Source: a virus. Taken from it: a DNA stretch of 5,122 nucleotides. Under the pieces are notes generated by a model, which saw only the letters and a list, made by a program, of their open reading frames with translations, was not told the origin of the DNA and ran no database searches. The DNA is taken from the IMG/VR virus record IMGVR_UViG_3300045988_078885, positions 1 to 5,122 of that record; one strand, given 5' to 3'. Made by a program: the position numbers and the translations under genes. This document shows, one piece after another, positions 56 to 3,848 of the stretch (position 1 is the stretch's first letter; every line of letters starts with the position of its first letter).

Positions 56-165
56 ACTTCAAAATCTCGCAAACCTTCACTGATATTAAAAACGACAGGC
101 CACTTACCATCAGGCGTCTTTCCATGAGCTGAACGCCAACCAGTAATAGGACAAAAACACGTCAT
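1..165 (-). CDS. Replication initiator Rep/VP4, N-terminal part. The ATG is at 165..163; the ORF continues across the circular junction into 5067..4207. Reconstructed N-terminus: MTCFCPITGWRSAHGKTPDGKWPVVFNISEGLRDFEVKVPCGQCIGCRLDKSLDWAGRCIQESTLWEHNYFLTLTYDD...
   Basis: Extended by hand upstream of the ORF-track start (TTG at 5019) in the same frame through 5122 = 55 and on to an in-frame stop at 181-183. The only ATG in the extension is at 163-165. It contains the CxxC...CxxC-like PCGQCIGCRL segment and the FLTLTY rolling-circle motif I, both typical of gokushovirus VP4. No SD: the upstream sequence is CACCCTTTTTTTT-ATG. Confidence 0.85.
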   Translation of the reverse strand, partial: MTCFCPITGWRSAHGKTPDGKWPVVFNISEGLRDFEVKVPCGQCIGCRLDKSLDW

Positions 166-195
166 AAAAAAAAGGGTGTTTCACGTGAAACACCC
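166..195 (-). terminator. Perfect 22-bp palindrome GGGTGTTTCAC|GTGAAACACCC (174-195) followed on the minus strand by T8 (166-173). Rho-independent-terminator-like, ending 0 nt before the Rep ATG.
   Basis: Reverse complement of gggtgtttcac = gtgaaacaccc (checked). The run of eight A on the plus strand at 166-173 is a T8 on the coding strand directly 3' of the hairpin. Confidence 0.6.
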
Positions 196-234: not shown

Positions 235-354
235 TTATAACCGAATACCTCCTCGAAGCGGTCGGGCGTCATTCTTTTTGCGGTGCCGCATAGCGGTTTT
301 CGTAAAAAGAGCTTTGCTCTTCCGACGGGAGATCTTCTTTCGAAACTTACTCAT
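235..354 (-). CDS. Small highly basic DNA-binding protein (Microviridae J / gokushovirus VP8-like), 39 aa: MSKFRKKISRRKSKALFTKTAMRHRKKNDARPLRGGIRL
   Basis: Hand-translated minus-strand ORF, ATG at 354..352 and TAA at 237..235. A strong SD (GAGGAGAA) lies 6 nt upstream. About 41% K/R, no acidic stretch. It sits between VP2 and Rep. It is too short to appear in the supplied ORF track. The overlapping plus-strand ORF 176..373 is its antisense shadow. Confidence 0.6.
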   Translation of the reverse strand: MSKFRKKISRRKSKALFTKTAMRHRKKNDARPLRGGIRL

Positions 355-443
355 GGTTTGTTCTCCTCAATAAAACCAATGAATTGAAGAACAGCCTTAA
401 AAATCTCGGCCACGTAAGAAAAAAACTGGTCAATAAACTCCAT
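351..443 (-). CDS. Hypothetical 30-aa peptide MEFIDQFFSYVAEIFKAVLQFIGFIEENKP. Its TGA overlaps the ATG of the J-like gene (ATGA).
   Basis: Hand translation: ATG 443..441, stop 353..351. The stop-start overlap ccATGAgt suggests translational coupling, and the SD of the J-like gene is encoded inside its last codons (att GAG GAG AAc). It has no SD of its own. The strand is T-rich, so an F-rich ORF may arise by chance. Confidence 0.25.
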   Translation of the reverse strand: MEFIDQFFSYVAEIFKAVLQFIGFIEENKP

Positions 444-446
444 TAT

Positions 447-530
447 TTAAAAACCGCGAATAAAAAAGTAAATCAAACCAACAAAAACAACAAGACCGAA
501 AAGCCAAGACAAAAAACTAACGCTTCCCAT
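447..530 (-). CDS. Hypothetical 27-aa single-pass transmembrane peptide MGSVSFLSWLFGLVVFVGLIYFFIRGF. Its start overlaps the VP2 stop. Candidate lysis/membrane peptide.
   Basis: ATG 530..528, TAA 449..447. Sequence context atgggaagcgtTAGt: the VP2 stop TAG lies 9 nt inside this ORF. A GGTGG SD-like element sits 2 nt upstream. About 20 contiguous hydrophobic residues are followed by a basic R. Caveat: the T-rich strand favours hydrophobic codons by chance. Confidence 0.3.
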   Translation of the reverse strand: MGSVSFLSWLFGLVVFVGLIYFFIRGF

Positions 531-1137
531 TGCCACCAGACTCAAAAAAACGATCTGCTAAATCACGAAGACGCTTCAATTCTGAAGCTGACGAAGCATT
601 CTCTGTGATACCAGAAAGAATACCAGCAAGACCACCAACGCCAGGAAAAGCATCATTAGCTTTTTTAATACGAAAAGTCAAAGGATTGTCATCCCAAAAT
701 CGATTTTCACGATACAAAGAATAAGCATTCTCAGAATTTATGACAGCCTGAAGACGATTAGCATTGGCAATAGCTTCTTGAGCAAAACGTTGGTCTTCCT
801 TAAGCTCCGTATCCTTCTTAATGTTATCAATTTCAGCTTTCTGTTTGTTAAGAAGATTTTGCATCTGCAAACCTTGAAAAGCAGAAGAAGCAACATCAGG
901 CATCTGAACAGCAGAACCACCAGCATTAAGACCACCGGTCGAAGCACCTTGGTTAGCAGAAAGAATGGGATTAAGACCGGCCTTACGAAGGTCGTCAACC
1001 TCCCATTGATGGCGATTCTGCATCGCCTCTTTCTGCCATAGCCAATTATGGTACTGGGAAAGGTAGTTGAAGCGGTAGTTTCCATAACCTTGAGCAGCCG
1101 AAGAAGCAGCACCGACAACAGCACCAATCCAAGACAT
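517..1137 (-). CDS. VP2 minor capsid / DNA pilot protein (gokushovirus-type), 206 aa.
   Basis: ATG at 1137..1135, preceded by an AAGGAG SD at a 5-nt spacing (ttctAAGGAGtagttATG). Gly/Ala/Gln/Asn-rich with the KAGLNPILS motif characteristic of gokushovirus VP2. Starts 9 nt after the VP1 stop. Confidence 0.8.
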   Translation of the reverse strand: MSWIGAVVGAASSAAQGYGNYRFNYLSQYHNWLWQKEAMQNRHQWEVDDLRKAGLNPILSANQGASTGGLNAGGSAVQMPDVASSAFQGLQMQNLLNKQKAEIDNIKKDTELKEDQRFAQEAIANANRLQAVINSENAYSLYRENRFWDDNPLTFRIKKANDAFPGVGGLAGILSGITENASSASELKRLRDLADRFFESGGNGKR

Positions 1138-1146
1138 AACTACTCC

Positions 1147-2808
1147 TTAGAAATGATCAACCAAACCAGGTGTCGCATAAATCGGCATCGGTCTAACGCA
1201 TTTCATTTTAAAGAAACAATCACAAATGATAGGCGGTTCGTCAGTAACCGCAACCACTCTTTCAATCGGTGTATTGTCCCGAATGAACTCACCGTTAAGA
1301 ACAGGAAGCTGATCAAACTTTTCGGCGAGATGCCACACATCAAGCGGCGTACTGGACGTCGAGCGAAGTTGACCAGTGATCATCGACTGATGGTACCGAT
1401 ACTCAGCATAACGCTCTTGGTAACCGAAGACCTTGTCGTCATCTGCAGTGCCTTGGAAATAAATTTCCTTGTTGAGAATCGCTTGCTCACCAAGGTGAGC
1501 CAGAGCAGGCCAATAGAAGTCCCAACGGCCTTTACGACTCCACATGCGCGGAAGACCTTGCTGATACGTGAGATCGGACTGCACACAACAAAAACCGATA
1601 ATCCAACCGTGTTCGACAAACGACTTAGTGAAAGCATGACGAACATCCATGCCAACACCATAAGCTGCCAAGTTACCTTGGGGCGTAGTAGCAGAATCAG
1701 CCGTGCCACTAGTCTGTTGGACAGGGTTAATGTTGATGTGCGAACGACCACCACCGAGATACTCGGGGCGTTGGAGGCGAGCATCGGGAGAAACCACGCC
1801 GAAATGGGAGCGGAGAATTTCGATATAACGTGTGCCGCCGCGAGCGTCACGCTCCATCAACTTCTGGAGTTGGAATGCCTGACGAAGATCATTAATACTA
1901 ATAGGCGTTGCTTCAGAAAGATCTACAGTACCAGAACCAGATGCAGACAAACCAGAGGCATACGACAAAGCGTAACTGTCTCCAGTCTGACCAATATGAA
2001 CAGCCTGATCACCAAGACTAGAAACAGACAAATTATCAGCAACAACAGTAACGCGATTACGATTAAAAGTAAGATTGCCAGAAGAAACGATATCAATATC
2101 GTTGACAACTGCAGGAACAGAACCGCCTAAAGAAATCTCAACACCAGGGCCTTTCTGAGGCCACGGAAGTGCACTCGTAAAGTAATCATGGAACTTAGCA
2201 ACGGGCGGGGGCTCAGATCCGTAAGTCAAAGGATTATCAACATTGGTACCAGAAATAGCCGCATCACCTACAAACTCGCGGTCCGTAGTCTTGTCGATGT
2301 TATAAGCATCCTGCAAGTTTTGATCTCGAAACCACTCGTTCCAAATGAGCGAGATGCAACGAAGCGGAAGCTCCGTCATCTTGCAATCAGCATTGACATT
2401 AACAGGCAAACCAAGGTAATCACCAATAGTCCCAATTTGAAGATTATTAAGCGTAGCCTCGGGGACAAGATAATCAGTAGAAGCAGTGGGACCAGATCTC
2501 TGGTCTCCATTAAGAGCTTCCCAATGATTCCAAACCAATCGGTTAGGAACAAAGAAAAAAAACGTTCGAAGGTACAAATTATCCATGAAAGGCACGATCG
2601 GAGTGGAAAGACGTGCCAAAAGGGAGGCGGTCACATTGAAAGTATCGCCTGGGAGTACCTCATCAATGAAAATCGGGATGAGCTTGCCAGTCTTGAAAGC
2701 CGTCTTGTGATCAAAGTCACGCTTCAAAACTGAACGAGGAATACTCACCTTCGGGAGCTCGACAAATTGGCGAGCAGGATTGCCGTAACGAACAGTAGTT
2801 TTTGACAT
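1147..2808 (-). CDS. VP1 major capsid protein (phiX174 F-like jelly-roll, gokushovirus-type), 553 aa.
   Basis: The N-terminus ...PRSVLKRDFDHKTAFKTGKLIPIFIDEVLPGDTF...FMDNLYLRTFFFFVPNRLVWNHWE... matches the conserved gokushovirus VP1 N-terminal block. The length is typical (~550 aa). SD GAGGTGA lies 8 nt upstream of ATG 2808. Confidence 0.95.
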   Translation of the reverse strand: MSKTTVRYGNPARQFVELPKVSIPRSVLKRDFDHKTAFKTGKLIPIFIDEVLPGDTFNVTASLLARLSTPIVPFMDNLYLRTFFFFVPNRLVWNHWEALNGDQRSGPTASTDYLVPEATLNNLQIGTIGDYLGLPVNVNADCKMTELPLRCISLIWNEWFRDQNLQDAYNIDKTTDREFVGDAAISGTNVDNPLTYGSEPPPVAKFHDYFTSALPWPQKGPGVEISLGGSVPAVVNDIDIVSSGNLTFNRNRVTVVADNLSVSSLGDQAVHIGQTGDSYALSYASGLSASGSGTVDLSEATPISINDLRQAFQLQKLMERDARGGTRYIEILRSHFGVVSPDARLQRPEYLGGGRSHININPVQQTSGTADSATTPQGNLAAYGVGMDVRHAFTKSFVEHGWIIGFCCVQSDLTYQQGLPRMWSRKGRWDFYWPALAHLGEQAILNKEIYFQGTADDDKVFGYQERYAEYRYHQSMITGQLRSTSSTPLDVWHLAEKFDQLPVLNGEFIRDNTPIERVVAVTDEPPIICDCFFKMKCVRPMPIYATPGLVDHF

Positions 2809-2876: not shown

Positions 2877-3293
2877 TCAAACCGCAGGTTCCTGAGTCGG
2901 AACTGCGGGCTGGGTTTCAGGTTCAGCAGCTGGTTTTGAGGGACTCAAATCGCCTGCAAGTTGTTTCTTAGCGGCTTCCTCAACCAAAGACTCGACCCAA
3001 AGGCGAGGGTCGTCTTGGAATTCACGGCGTTTGTCCGCGGGAAGTTCCGCAAACGTGGCATTGACCGCAAGAATCTTATTGAGCTGTTCCTGATAATCAC
3101 CGACATCGCTGACATCCAAATGCACAGCGGCAGACGCGCGAGCGGGATCACCGAGCAAACCAGTCGCACGGTAACGCTTCAAGTAATAATCGATTGTTGT
3201 CTGAGGGTACTCAGACTGCACCGTCATTGACGGCTTCTTGTAAGTCGTGCCCTTGGAGGGCACACGAGCCGAATAGCGATCTTTAAACTTCAT
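2877..3293 (-). CDS. VP3 internal scaffolding protein (gokushovirus-type), 138 aa from ATG 3293. The ORF track extends it to a GTG at 3347.
   Basis: The central segment ...FAELPADKRREFQDDPRLWVESL... resembles the conserved LPAxVRxxFxNxP...L block of gokushovirus VP3. The C-terminus is acidic/Pro-rich. ATG 3293 has a GAGGA SD 9 nt upstream and overlaps the 3' end of the upstream ORF (ATGAAGTTTAA). Confidence 0.7.
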   Translation of the reverse strand: MKFKDRYSARVPSKGTTYKKPSMTVQSEYPQTTIDYYLKRYRATGLLGDPARASAAVHLDVSDVGDYQEQLNKILAVNATFAELPADKRREFQDDPRLWVESLVEEAAKKQLAGDLSPSKPAAEPETQPAVPTQEPAV

Positions 3294-3549
3294 CTTCCAA
3301 ATCCTCACCGACAAAAGTGAAATCGCACCATTCAGAAATGGCAACACCGTCTTCGTAAAAACGACGCTTTCTTAAACTTACGCTTTCTTTACTAGAAAGA
3401 ACAGCATGGGTCACATCTTTCGCCATCGGGTGTCGCGCAACCATACGACCCGCCTTTGTGGCGGCTCCGCGGAATGATTCAGCCGCGAGATGCACGCACG
3501 CTAATTTATATACGCCGTGCCAAATCGACAAACTGTATAAGCTAACCAT
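3283..3549 (-). CDS. Hypothetical protein, 88 aa, with an acidic C-terminus (EDLEDEV). Translationally coupled to VP3.
   Basis: ATG 3549..3547 with a strong SD AAGGAGA 6 nt upstream. Its stop TAA (3285..3283) falls 8 nt after the VP3 ATG. I do not recognise any family. Confidence 0.55.
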   Translation of the reverse strand: MVSLYSLSIWHGVYKLACVHLAAESFRGAATKAGRMVARHPMAKDVTHAVLSSKESVSLRKRRFYEDGVAISEWCDFTFVGEDLEDEV

Positions 3550-3638: not shown

Positions 3639-3848
3639 CTACGCATGACCAACAACGTCACAAATAAACGAATCATTCTTGACAAGACAATAAAACAATT
3701 TGTCAACATCTTTGTCATAAAAGAAATAACCAACTAAACGGCCTTGAGCTACCGCGCGGGAAAGCCCGCTTGGTGCCTCGATTGCGCCGCTTCGCTGGGC
3801 TCGTCGAGGTCGATTTTTTTCCGCCTTCGGCGGCTTTCCATCAGACAT
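3639..3848 (-). CDS. Questionable 69-aa basic ORF (MSDGKPPKAEKNRPRRAQRSG...) running through the hairpin-rich non-coding block. Probably not coding.
   Basis: The ATG at 3848..3846 overlaps the stop of the 110-aa ORF (ATGTCTGA). The N-terminus is K/R-rich. The Ala/Gly-rich middle is encoded by GC hairpins (3755-3833), and the AT block carries promoter-like hexamers. A second J-like protein is unlikely given the 39-aa candidate with the strong SD. Confidence 0.2.
   Translation of the reverse strand: MSDGKPPKAEKNRPRRAQRSGAIEAPSGLSRAVAQGRLVGYFFYDKDVDKLFYCLVKNDSFICDVVGHA
3755..3833. promoter_or_regulatory. Cluster of GC-rich hairpins: gcggg-aaag-cccgc (3756-3769); cctcga...tcgagg (3776-3809) followed by a plus-strand T7 (3814-3820); ccgcc-ttc-ggcgg (3821-3833).
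   Basis: All stems were verified by reverse complement. On the plus strand a hairpin followed by a T7 run resembles a rho-independent terminator. In ssDNA these would form stable stem-loops. This is the largest non-coding stretch of the genome. Confidence 0.5.

What the first reader, a model, noticed from the sequence alone, without database searches (positions are those of the whole stretch)
351..530. Chain of translationally coupled micro-ORFs after VP2: a 27-aa transmembrane peptide and a 30-aa F-rich peptide feeding into the J-like gene
On the coding strand, the VP2 stop sits 9 nt inside a 27-aa ORF that is essentially one TM helix plus a basic tail (MGSVSFLSWLFGLVVFVGLIYFFIRGF). Three nt after its TAA, a 30-aa ORF (MEFIDQFFSYVAEIFKAVLQFIGFIEENKP) starts and ends with TGA overlapping the J-like ATG (ATGA). 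That ORF also encodes the J-like SD in its last codons. Gokushoviruses have no recognised lysis gene, whereas phiX174 lyses with a small TM protein E. A tiny membrane peptide coupled to the late structural operon is therefore an attractive lysis or membrane-targeting candidate. The main counter-argument is compositional: the strand is T-rich here, which inflates chance hydrophobic ORFs.
Basis: inference. Interest (0 to 1): 0.65.

Follow-up and report, generated by a model that had tools for sequence, protein, structure and literature searches.

The report
TatA-like membrane micro-gene in gokushovirus
Two tiny genes wedged between the pilot-protein and DNA-binding genes of a gut gokushovirus are real, and the first encodes a 27-residue membrane peptide whose start copies the start of the bacterial export protein TatA. 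This suggests the phage tampers with its host's Tat export machine, although the peptide is not a general gokushovirus lysis gene.

Summary
On the minus strand, VP2 (1137-517) is followed by a 27-aa TM ORF (530-447), a 30-aa ORF (443-351) and the J-like gene (354-235), chained by stop/start overlaps and closed by an intrinsic terminator (195-174).

A single sequence proves little: 18% of shuffles give a hydrophobic ORF. Comparison does.

- **30-aa ORF.** It is a single amphipathic helix under strong purifying selection (dN/dS 0.03-0.2). It is present in both gut clades examined.
- **TM ORF.** It is an accessory gene, present in 11 of 18 genomes of its clade and 0 of 35 in the sister clade. It is absent, with the 30-aa ORF, from an E. 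coli gokushovirus prophage. It evolves fast (dN/dS about 0.8).
- **TatA resemblance.** Residues 1-17/19 of the family match the TatA N-terminus ([11 protein letters not shown]), including the polar residue 8 that contacts TatC. The TM run is longer than TatA's and there is no amphipathic helix.
- **Host.** Prophage relatives sit in Sutterellaceae contigs.

Best reading (inferred): a TatA/TatB decoy that poisons Tat and stresses the membrane late in infection. It is not a universal lysis gene.

The parts
517..1137 (-). VP2 (DNA pilot protein, 206 aa). Its TAG (519-517) lies inside the TM micro-ORF.
   Evidence: PHROG pilot-protein families, E=1.6e-25 to 3.9e-27. It is 82% identical to VP2 of L149-L151.
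533..537 (-). SD-like GGTGG, 2-3 nt upstream of the TM ATG. It is encoded by the Gly-Gly codons of VP2 and its spacing is suboptimal.
   Evidence: Read from the sequence. Relatives such as L052 have GAGG with 5-nt spacing.
447..530 (-). 27-aa TM micro-ORF, MGSVSFLSWLFGLVVFVGLIYFFIRGF. It has a TatA-like N-terminus with polar S8, then 16 uncharged residues, then the tail RGF.
   Evidence: - The homologous ORF sits at the same position in 11 of 18 clade genomes.
- It shares 16/29 identity with L149, MGSLSVWHWFFGLLVSVGLVYFLVRGMFK.
- It scores 10.1 bits against a TatA HMM, reached by 0 of 1000 shuffles, and stands above all natural decoys.
- BLASTP against TatA P0012 gives 11/18 identity.
351..443 (-). 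30-aa amphipathic-helix micro-ORF ('AMP'), MEFIDQFFSYVAEIFKAVLQFIGFIEENKP. Its ATG has no SD of its own and lies 3 nt after the TM stop.
   Evidence: - dN/dS is 0.03-0.23 in most pairs (0.41 in one).
- It is present in both gut clades.
- AF2 predicts a single helix, residues 2-27, pLDDT 94.
- The hydrophobic moment is 0.58.
- The equivalent ORF is annotated 'hypothetical protein' in Dulem virus 149.
362..367 (-). GAGGAG Shine-Dalgarno for the J-like gene, inside the last codons (IEENKP) of the 30-aa ORF.
   Evidence: Read from the sequence. The junction is conserved in relatives.
235..354 (-). J-like / VP8 DNA-binding protein (39 aa). Its ATG overlaps the TGA of the 30-aa ORF (ATGA).
   Evidence: phrog_10695, E=9.7e-12. 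dN/dS is 0.04 against L150.
166..195 (-). Intrinsic terminator closing the VP2-TM-AMP-J transcript. The stem GGGTGTTTC/GAAACACCC spans 195-174 and a T8 run spans 173-166. The VP4 ATG follows at 165-163.
   Evidence: Terminator scan. RNA fold z=-3.2, with 0 of 200 shuffles as stable. VP4 start.

Best explanation
**Shown.** The window is a complete 5,067-nt gokushovirus genome. Its late transcript ends VP2 -> 27-aa TM peptide -> 30-aa amphipathic helix -> J-like protein -> intrinsic terminator. Each cistron starts at or next to the stop of the one before.

**Translational relay (inferred).**
- The 30-aa gene has no SD of its own here.
- In genomes without the TM gene, its ATG overlaps the VP2 stop directly.
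- So in this window it is most likely reached by ribosomes that have just finished the TM ORF. The TM ORF therefore acts at least as a translational relay.

**The TM peptide.**
- It belongs to a fast-evolving accessory family that travels with the 3' end of VP2.
- Charge distribution predicts N-out/C-in insertion in the inner membrane.
- Its first 17-19 residues copy the TatA N-terminus (consensus [11 protein letters not shown]). This includes the polar residue at position 8, which in TatA/TatB hydrogen-bonds to TatC.
- It has 16-19 uncharged residues after that position, where TatA has 12. It has no Phe-Gly hinge and no amphipathic helix.

**Mechanism (inferred).**
- The peptide acts as a TatA/TatB decoy. 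It docks on TatC or mixes into TatA assemblies of the host, probably a gut Sutterellaceae.
- It cannot support transport, so it poisons Tat export and stresses the membrane late in infection.
- This is what engineered long-TMH TatA variants do.
- Whether the outcome is help with release, host shut-down or exclusion is not known.

**The 30-aa helix.** It is a separate, strongly conserved protein that probably works with VP2 and J in morphogenesis. It is not the TatA amphipathic helix.
For: **Gene reality**
- The architecture and couplings are conserved across relatives with VP2 34-82% identical.
- Genomes that lack the TM ORF lack the whole roughly 85-nt segment, and VP2 then abuts AMP.
- AMP dN/dS is 0.03-0.2.
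- A terminator follows J.
- There is no Rfam hit and no unusual RNA fold.

**TatA resemblance**
- All 7 non-phage hits of the profile search are TatA.
- 6 of 8 peptides have three NCBIfam TatA equivalog models as their top hits, always positions 1-19 to 1-19. By contrast, 0 of 10 reversed or shuffled controls hit TatA.
- Against a TatA HMM built from 119 sequences, 11 of 12 peptides score 10-20 bits, reached by at most 1 of 1000 shuffles.
- The top 8 of 365 natural small hydrophobic ORFs are exactly these ORFs, and the next decoy scores 5.8 bits.
- All 19 hits among 17,670 six-frame segments are these ORFs.
- Position 8 is H in most alleles and S in the window. Both occur naturally in TatA-family proteins, paired with TatC residue 215 (PMC5201420).

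**Precedent**
- TatA variants with the TMH lengthened by 6-7 residues are inactive, induce Psp membrane stress, slow growth and are dominant negative (PMC9424591).

**Topology and host**
- N-tail charge is 0 or -1 and C-tail charge is +1 to +3.
- Prophages carrying the TM gene lie in contigs whose flanking hydrogenase is 96% identical to Duodenibacillus and 87-88% to Sutterella.
Against: - The TatA match is short (17-19 residues). It is far below curated cut-offs (about 17 bits against 83) and not significant database-wide (E about 1-9; none at E<=1e-3). Pfam PF02416 does not hit.
- The window's own copy is the weakest member with a signal (about 10 bits). It has no NCBIfam hit, has LS instead of WH at positions 7-8, and has a shortened tail.
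- dN/dS of 0.81 against L150 is compatible with relaxed constraint.
- The L051 allele shows no TatA signal.
- No Sutterellaceae tatA/tatC sequence could be fetched. Neither host-specific mimicry nor the host of this particular phage is shown.
- No experiment links any such peptide to Tat. Convergence on a self-inserting N-out helix is possible.
Confidence: 0.4

Rival explanations
1. Tat-independent single-gene lysis or holin-like peptide. The TM peptide accumulates in the inner membrane late in infection and causes lysis by itself or by blocking a cell-wall step, as phiX174 E or the short ssRNA-phage lysis peptides do.
For: - It sits late in the structural operon, upstream of the terminator.
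- It has a TM helix plus a basic tail.
- The genome has no endolysin, peptidase or other conserved TM gene.
- Lysis genes are unknown in gokushoviruses.
- Fast evolution is typical of such genes.
Against: - It is absent from the nearest relatives that otherwise share the module, from the whole sister clade, and from an E. coli gokushovirus prophage.
- It has no similarity to E or any PHROG lysis family.
- This reading leaves the specific TatA-like N-terminus unexplained.
Confidence: 0.2
2. The TM ORF in this window is mainly a translational relay, or a decaying copy. It is translated so that ribosomes reach the SD-less 30-aa gene, but the peptide itself has little or no function here.
For: - AMP has no SD, and its ATG is 3 nt after the TM stop.
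- dN/dS is 0.81.
- The WHW motif is lost and the tail is truncated relative to L149.
- The gene is dispensable in many relatives.
Against: - Hydrophobicity, length, start and topology signals are kept.
- Changes are rarest at codon position 2 (3 of 18).
- S8 is a natural TatA-family variant.
- The TatA-HMM score is still above all decoys and shuffles.
- A relay does not need 27 codons, because relatives simply abut AMP to VP2.
Confidence: 0.15
3. Superinfection-exclusion or lysogenic-conversion membrane protein of a temperate gokushovirus. It would block entry of related phages or alter the envelope of the lysogen.
For: - Distribution is patchy, and alleles are hypervariable next to near-identical AMP and J genes (L050, L052, L059).
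- Relatives carrying it are integrated prophages.
Against: - It has no promoter of its own above chance.
- It is embedded in, and coupled to, the late structural operon.
- The TatA-like motif is not explained unless Tat is involved in entry.
Confidence: 0.12
4. Accessory partner of the pilot protein VP2. The peptide, and perhaps the 30-aa helix, would be made in step with VP2 and help it insert into or cross the inner membrane during assembly or DNA delivery.
For: - Its start overlaps VP2.
- TM alleles co-vary with VP2 C-terminal types (GGNGK-type with MGS..., NLRTPK-type with MNEV/MSDL...).
- There is a weak local match between one AMP type and the tail of a long VP2 (p=0.005 for one pair).
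Against: - Co-variation can be plain linkage.
- The AMP-to-VP2-tail similarity is not significant overall.
- VP2 works without either peptide in many lineages.
Confidence: 0.1
5. Chance open frames in T-rich sequence, not genes.
For: 17.7% of shuffles give a hydrophobic ORF. The window has many hydrophobic alternative-frame ORFs.
Against: - Position, frame, couplings and motifs are conserved across many genomes.
- The 30-aa ORF is under purifying selection.
- The TM segment is present or absent as a whole unit.
Confidence: 0.03

Closest known systems
[quoted passage not shown]
   Same: - The N-terminal 17-19 residues match, including the [11 protein letters not shown]-type motif and a polar residue at position 8.
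- The predicted topology is N-out/C-in.
- A basic stretch follows the helix.
- See, and PMC5201420.
   Different: - Length is 27-38 aa against about 70-80 aa.
- It has 16-19 uncharged residues instead of the conserved 12.
- There is no conserved Phe-Gly hinge, no amphipathic helix and no acidic patch.
- Scores are far below the family cut-offs.
- It is encoded by a phage. It is a mimic or fragment, not a member.
Engineered TatA variants with a lengthened transmembrane helix (A+6, A+7; PMC9424591)
   Same: A TatA N-terminus is joined to a TM helix about 4-7 residues too long. In E. coli such variants are inactive, dominant negative, induce Psp stress and slow growth.
   Different: Those variants keep the amphipathic helix and are laboratory constructs. 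The effect of a helix-only peptide has not been tested.
phiX174 protein E (single-gene lysis, MraY inhibitor)
   Same: It is a small microvirus membrane protein with an N-terminal TM helix and a basic C-terminal part, made late.
   Different: - E is 91 aa, is overprinted inside gene D, and belongs to Bullavirinae.
- There is no sequence similarity.
- The micro-ORF has its own dedicated sequence and is dispensable in relatives.
phiX174 protein K (from memory: small non-essential membrane-associated protein that raises burst size)
   Same: It is a small, hydrophobic, accessory microvirus protein.
   Different: K is an overprinted gene in a different genome position. No similarity was tested or known. 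This comparison rests on recall only.
Short ssRNA-phage lysis peptides and small one-TM holins (BhlA/TpeE type; PMC9527704)
   Same: They have one short TM helix with charged flanks. The BhlA TM helix alone is bactericidal. From memory, sizes go down to about 35 aa in ssRNA phages.
   Different: There is no sequence relation and no endolysin partner here. The TatA-like N-terminus is specific to this family.
Unnamed 'hypothetical protein' between VP2 and the DNA-binding protein in GenBank gokushovirus records (for example XCD05475.1 of Dulem virus 149)
   Same: It is the same gene as the 30-aa ORF, at the same position and with the same ATGA coupling to J.
   Different: It is annotated only sporadically, and it is unannotated in human-gut gokushovirus records. 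No function is assigned. There is only a weak PHROG match (phrog_16247, E=0.067).

Membership tests
TatA/TatE family (Pfam PF02416; NCBIfam NF001940, NF002813, NF003393) | Short N-terminal periplasmic tail with a polar residue at about position 8 that contacts TatC | tested here: met
   - H8 is present in 10 of the 12 peptide alleles scored. The window has S8, and L051 has S at an equivalent place.
- H8 and S8 are natural TatA-family variants (PMC5201420).
- The HMM match runs from residue 1 to residue 1.
TatA/TatE family (Pfam PF02416; NCBIfam NF001940, NF002813, NF003393) | TM helix of only 12 consecutive hydrophobic residues, ending in a conserved Phe followed by a strictly conserved Gly (PMC9527704, PMC9424591) | tested here: not met
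   The polar residue is followed by 16-19 uncharged residues, and there is no conserved F-G hinge.
TatA/TatE family (Pfam PF02416; NCBIfam NF001940, NF002813, NF003393) | Amphipathic helix after the hinge | tested here: not met
   - The peptides end 3-13 residues after the TM run.
- The neighbouring 30-aa helix has no TatA signal and does not raise the score when appended.
TatA/TatE family (Pfam PF02416; NCBIfam NF001940, NF002813, NF003393) | Score above the curated family cut-off | tested here: not met
   The best scores are 17-18 bits against cut-offs of 83-104. There is no PF02416 hit.
Microvirus lysis protein E | Sequence similarity to E, or a match to phage lysis families | tested here: not met
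   No Pfam or PHROG lysis family hit at E<=10.
Microvirus lysis protein E | Overprinted inside the external scaffolding gene | tested here: not met
   Only 14 nt overlap VP2. About 70 nt are dedicated sequence. From established knowledge, gokushoviruses have no external scaffolding gene D.
Microvirus lysis protein E | Causes lysis when expressed; MraY and SlyD dependence | not testable with these tools
   This needs expression experiments.
Holins | At least one TM helix with a charged, usually basic, cytoplasmic C-terminus | tested here: met
   KD17 is 2.45 and the C-tail charge is +1 to +3.
Holins | Genetic partnership with an endolysin | tested here: not met
   No endolysin or peptidase domain in any ORF of the genome.
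Gokushovirus VP8 / J-like DNA-binding protein (for the downstream gene 235-354) | Short, highly basic protein encoded after VP2, with a family profile match | tested here: met
   phrog_10695, E=9.7e-12. The RGGIRL C-terminus is shared with all relatives, including the E. coli prophage.

The most novel reading that the evidence does not exclude
A family of gokushovirus micro-proteins would be the first virus-encoded antagonists or hijackers of the twin-arginine translocase.
- They are TatA transmembrane-helix decoys, captured from or moulded on the TatA of their Sutterellaceae hosts.
- They would dock on TatC through residue 8 and poison Tat late in infection.
- The resulting envelope defect and membrane stress could be what lets these endolysin-less phages escape.
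- The allele at residue 8 (H or S) would track the host TatC partner residue.
Probability: 0.3. Interest if true: 0.8.

Novelty: new variant of a known kind. Interest (0 to 1): 0.62.

Why it matters
- **Under-annotation.** Gokushoviruses are among the most abundant gut phages, yet their genomes are annotated with five or six genes. This work shows two further real genes of 27-38 aa that standard pipelines mostly skip.
- **A testable target.** One of the two carries a recognisable copy of a host protein's functional end. That turns a vague 'small hydrophobic ORF' into a testable hypothesis with a named target: TatC and TatA.
- **Host clue.** The resemblance offers a sequence-based host clue (proteobacterial TatA type), consistent with prophages found in Sutterellaceae.
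- **Limits on the lysis question.** The lysis question for gokushoviruses stays open, but the search is narrowed. Neither micro-gene is universal, so neither can be the general answer.
- **If the decoy idea holds.** It would be a new way for a virus to disable a bacterial export system. It would also give a natural peptide lead against Tat, which many pathogens need.

Tried and rejected
1. **'The 30-aa helix is the missing TatA amphipathic helix, so the pair is a split tatA.'** A pairwise BLASTP of the concatenated pair against a TatA looked suggestive (E=0.009). However, NCBIfam gave no TatA hit for 10 AMP variants. AMP scores against a TatA HMM are no better than shuffles, and appending AMP does not raise the TM score. 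AMP is also far more widespread than the TM gene. Rejected.
2. **'AMP is a detached C-terminal tail of long VP2 proteins.'** One local match was found (IDKVLSLFGNL against IIKVLSPFTNL, p=0.005). The AMP HMM does not hit long-VP2 tails, and only 2 of 15 pairs had p<0.02. Not supported.
3. **Structured RNA instead of coding.** There are no Rfam hits, and the fold z-score is -0.89. Rejected.
4. **Overprinted hydrophobic ORFs as alternative lysis candidates.** An example is the 61-aa ORF at 1923-2108 inside VP1. These are not conserved in sequence in the 82% relative.
   - Megablast of the genome against GenBank phages gave no match.
   - A profile search of 1.84 billion representatives returned only the query members.
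   - PDB sequence searches gave nothing meaningful.
   - Strain variants could not be used: the three contigs carrying the same J protein are 100% identical to the window.
   - Cluster names did not place the matching TatA sequences in Sutterellaceae. Only Dongiaceae and Verrucomicrobiae labels appeared.
   - Literature searches found no report of a gokushovirus lysis gene or a phage TatA mimic.
Full report
**What the window is.** The 5,122 bases are one circular gokushovirus genome of 5,067 nt with a 55-nt terminal repeat. All genes are on the minus strand:
- VP4 (replication initiator) starts at 165 and runs over the junction to 4207.
- VP5 is at 4173-3841.
- An 88-aa ORF is at 3549-3283.
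- VP3 (scaffold) is at 3293-2877.
- VP1 (capsid) is at 2808-1147.
- VP2 (pilot protein) is at 1137-517.
- The two micro-ORFs follow, then a 39-aa J-like/VP8 protein at 354-235.

The same genome, 100% identical, occurs in three metagenome samples.

**Observation.**
- The TM ORF runs 530-447, and the VP2 TAG lies at 519-517 inside it.
- Three nucleotides separate its TAA from the ATG of the 30-aa ORF (443-351).
- The TGA of the 30-aa ORF overlaps the J ATG as ATGA, and the GAGGAG SD for J lies in the last codons of the 30-aa ORF.
- One small correction: the overlap with VP2 is 14 nt.
- A strong intrinsic terminator (stem 195-174, T8 at 173-166) closes the unit 40 nt after J.
- The region has no Rfam match and folds no better than shuffles.

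**Chance.** From this sequence alone the TM ORF is not significant.
- The coding strand is 31.7% T, and 47% T in this region.
- The window has nine hydrophobic alternative-frame ORFs.
- 17.7% of dinucleotide shuffles of the VP2-J gap give a hydrophobic ATG-ORF of at least 25 aa. Two consecutive ORFs arise in 0.8%.

**Comparison.** I gathered relatives in five ways:
- VP2 searches.
- A back-translated J motif scanned through viral and metagenome contigs.
- Exact-protein look-ups.
- Three GenBank phage records fetched whole.
- An E. coli prophage found through VP1 DNA.

In the clade that shares the window's J type (FTKTAMRHRK), the order VP2 -> [TM] -> amphipathic peptide -> J is constant. The junctions are ATGA, TAATG or a few nucleotides apart.

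**The 30-aa ORF ('AMP').**
- It is present in every genome of this clade. It is also present in all 35 genomes of the human-gut sister clade, where it reads MIDxILKFVNVLLNSGSAIWEAFKAVKKLFKK and overlaps the VP2 stop directly.
- Nei-Gojobori dN/dS is 0.03-0.23 in most pairs, with one at 0.41. It is 0.15 against the closest distinct relative, L150. For comparison, J is 0.04, VP1 is 0.09 and VP2 is 0.22.
- AlphaFold2 gives one helix, residues 2-27, with pLDDT 94.
- The hydrophobic moment is high (0.41-0.62). Net charge drifts from -4 to +4 between lineages. That argues against a purely electrostatic role, whether DNA binding or cationic membrane attack.
- It is annotated as a hypothetical protein in Dulem virus 149 and unannotated in human-gut gokushovirus records.
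- So it is a real, constrained gene of unknown function.

**The TM ORF.**
- A homologous ORF of 26-38 aa sits in the same slot in 11 of 18 distinct genomes of the clade. Those genomes are:
  - the window
  - L149-151
  - L049 (Dulem virus 149)
  - L158
  - L050 (KT264806)
  - L052
  - L152/153
  - L054
  - L055
  - L059-065
  - L051
- It is absent from 7 genomes: L048/MG945320, L156/157, L053, L154/155, L159/160, L056 and L057. In these the whole segment is missing and VP2 abuts AMP.
- It is absent from all 35 sister-clade genomes.
- An E. coli gokushovirus prophage (L161) has neither micro-ORF. Its J starts 3 nt after VP2.
- The closest distinct relative (VP2 82% identical) has MGSLSVWHWFFGLLVSVGLVYFLVRGMFK, against the window's MGSVSFLSWLFGLVVFVGLIYFFIRGF. 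That is 16/29 identity, which ties the window's copy to the family.
- dN/dS is 0.81, with changes at codon positions 1/2/3 of 8/3/7. Sequence is weakly constrained while hydrophobicity is kept.
- Genomes with near-identical AMP and J (L050, L052, L059) carry very different TM alleles. These go with different VP2 C-termini. So the gene moves as a module with the 3' end of VP2.

**The unexpected finding.**
- A profile of concatenated TM+AMP peptides, searched against 5.8 billion proteins, returned the phage peptides and, as the only other hits, seven TatA proteins. Examples are [15 protein letters not shown]... and [16 protein letters not shown].... Those E-values (1-9) mean nothing alone, and the candidates were pre-selected by shared words, so I tested the link independently.
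- NCBIfam: 6 of 8 peptides have three TatA equivalog models as their top three hits (E 0.002-0.2), always peptide 1-19 against model 1-19. None of 10 reversed or shuffled controls hit TatA.
- TatA HMM built from 119 TatA sequences chosen by full-length similarity to one TatA, with consensus [25 protein letters not shown]. It scores 11 of 12 peptides at 10-20 bits, reached by at most 1 of 1000 composition-matched shuffles. The window's copy scores 10.1 bits, with 0 of 1000.
- Natural decoys: among 365 small hydrophobic ORFs from all loci, the top eight are exactly the post-VP2 TM ORFs, and the next scores 5.8 bits.
- Six-frame scan: among 17,670 segments, all 19 hits at E<=1 are these ORFs.
- The match is confined to residues 1-17/19.
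- The motif is not forced by the overlap with VP2, because alleles that overlap VP2 by only 1-4 nt have it too.

**How far the resemblance goes.** TatA family proteins are defined by four features (PMC9527704, PMC9424591, PMC5201420):
- a short periplasmic N-tail;
- a polar residue at about position 8 that hydrogen-bonds TatC;
- exactly 12 hydrophobic residues ending in Phe-Gly;
- an amphipathic helix.

The phage peptides keep the first two features. Position 8 is H in most alleles and S in the window, and both occur naturally, paired with TatC residue 215. The peptides differ in the rest: they have 16-19 uncharged residues, no conserved hinge and no amphipathic helix. They are far below the family cut-offs, and Pfam does not hit. 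So they are not TatA family members. They are TatA N-terminus look-alikes, either by capture of the 5' end of a tatA gene or by convergence.

**Mechanism (inferred).**
- The charge pattern (N-tail 0 or -1, C-tail +1 to +3) predicts the TatA topology, N-out/C-in.
- The part that is conserved is the part of TatA/TatB that engages TatC.
- A helix-only peptive with a TatA N-terminus and an over-long helix is therefore best read as a decoy or poison subunit for the host Tat system. It would be made late because it is coupled to VP2.
- What the phage gains is open. Options are envelope weakening and help with release, shut-down of export, or exclusion.
- Independently of the peptide's own activity, the ORF probably serves as a relay. 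The strongly conserved AMP gene has no SD here and starts 3 nt after the TM stop. In TM-less genomes it starts on the VP2 stop.

**Host.**
- The 38-aa allele (P0004) lies in integrated gokushovirus prophages on bacterial contigs (L060; L061 from a 55-kb contig).
- A flanking hydrogenase is 96% identical to Candidatus Duodenibacillus intestinigallinarum and 87-88% to Sutterella and Duodenibacillus species.
- So at least part of this clade infects gut Sutterellaceae.
- From memory, the [11 protein letters not shown]-type TatA N-terminus is common in beta- and alpha-proteobacteria. I could not fetch Sutterellaceae tatA to test this directly (one search gave no useful taxonomy).
- The host of the window's own phage is inferred only by clade membership.

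- 'Real, coupled micro-genes, one a membrane peptide' is supported.
- 'The missing gokushovirus lysis gene' is not. The TM gene is accessory and absent from close relatives and from the E. coli gokushovirus prophage examined. It is unrelated to phiX174 E.
- A lineage-specific role in release remains possible, and I give it about 0.2 as a Tat-independent mechanism.
- The window's copy is the most diverged TatA-like member (positions 7-8 changed, tail shortened), so reduced function in this particular genome cannot be excluded.

**Novelty.** The papers held here report no gokushovirus lysis gene and no phage-encoded TatA mimic. The peptides appear in databases only as unnamed hypothetical proteins, and they match no PHROG family convincingly. 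I rate this a new variant of a known kind, namely small phage single-pass membrane proteins. The more novel reading, a viral Tat antagonist, stands at about 0.3.

Noticed in passing
window 163-195 (minus strand): The terminator hairpin GGGTGTTTCACGTGAAACACCC is a perfect palindrome. It is followed by T8 and then immediately by the VP4 ATG (165-163). The same palindrome recurs in relatives, where it reads 'MFHVKH...' in both directions in L050, L154, L156 and L159. It may serve as more than a terminator, for example in control of VP4 expression or as an origin or recombination site.
   Followed up: partly
L060 1-10500; L061 1-10360; L161 1-8131: Gokushovirus prophages of this clade in Sutterellaceae contigs lie next to a hipA gene, as does the E. 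coli gokushovirus prophage (hipBA). That fits integration at the chromosomal dif region in both hosts. The window's clade is therefore at least partly temperate.
   Followed up: partly
L002 1700-1795: One human-gut-clade genome has an extra 31-aa, non-hydrophobic ORF (MKFGQWMGLINPFNNTSSAATSAVGAARLAK) inserted between VP2 and the amphipathic peptide gene. So the VP2/AMP junction seems to be a general insertion slot for micro-genes.
   Followed up: no
window 3283-3549 and 3639-3848 (minus strand): An 88-aa ORF upstream of VP3 has no family match but a dN/dS of 0.09 against the 82% relative, so it is a real gene of unknown function. A 69-aa ORF overlapping the end of VP5 is called as a gene in the identical contigs, but I did not test it.
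   Followed up: partly
window 1923-2108 (minus strand, inside VP1): A very hydrophobic 61-aa alternative-frame ORF (TTG start) lies in the variable part of VP1. The relative L150 has a different hydrophobic ORF at about the same offset, with no sequence conservation. It is probably a compositional by-product.
   Followed up: partly
L053 2642-3290: In this IMG/VR contig VP2 appears broken into pieces (148 aa plus fragments), and the amphipathic peptide gene starts with GTG. This could be an assembly error or a defective genome.
   Followed up: no
L039 2560-2658 versus L050 2375-2461: There is a local similarity between the amphipathic peptide of L050 (IDKVLSLFGNL) and the C-terminal tail of a 308-aa VP2 (IIKVLSPFTNL), in a lineage that has no separate peptide gene. 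It is not significant overall, but it hints that the peptide could once have been a VP2 tail.
   Followed up: partly
L050, L052, L059, L152 (VP2 3' end to J): Genomes with nearly identical AMP and J genes (dN = 0) carry unrelated-looking VP2 C-termini and TM alleles. This indicates a recombination breakpoint at the TM/AMP junction.
   Followed up: partly
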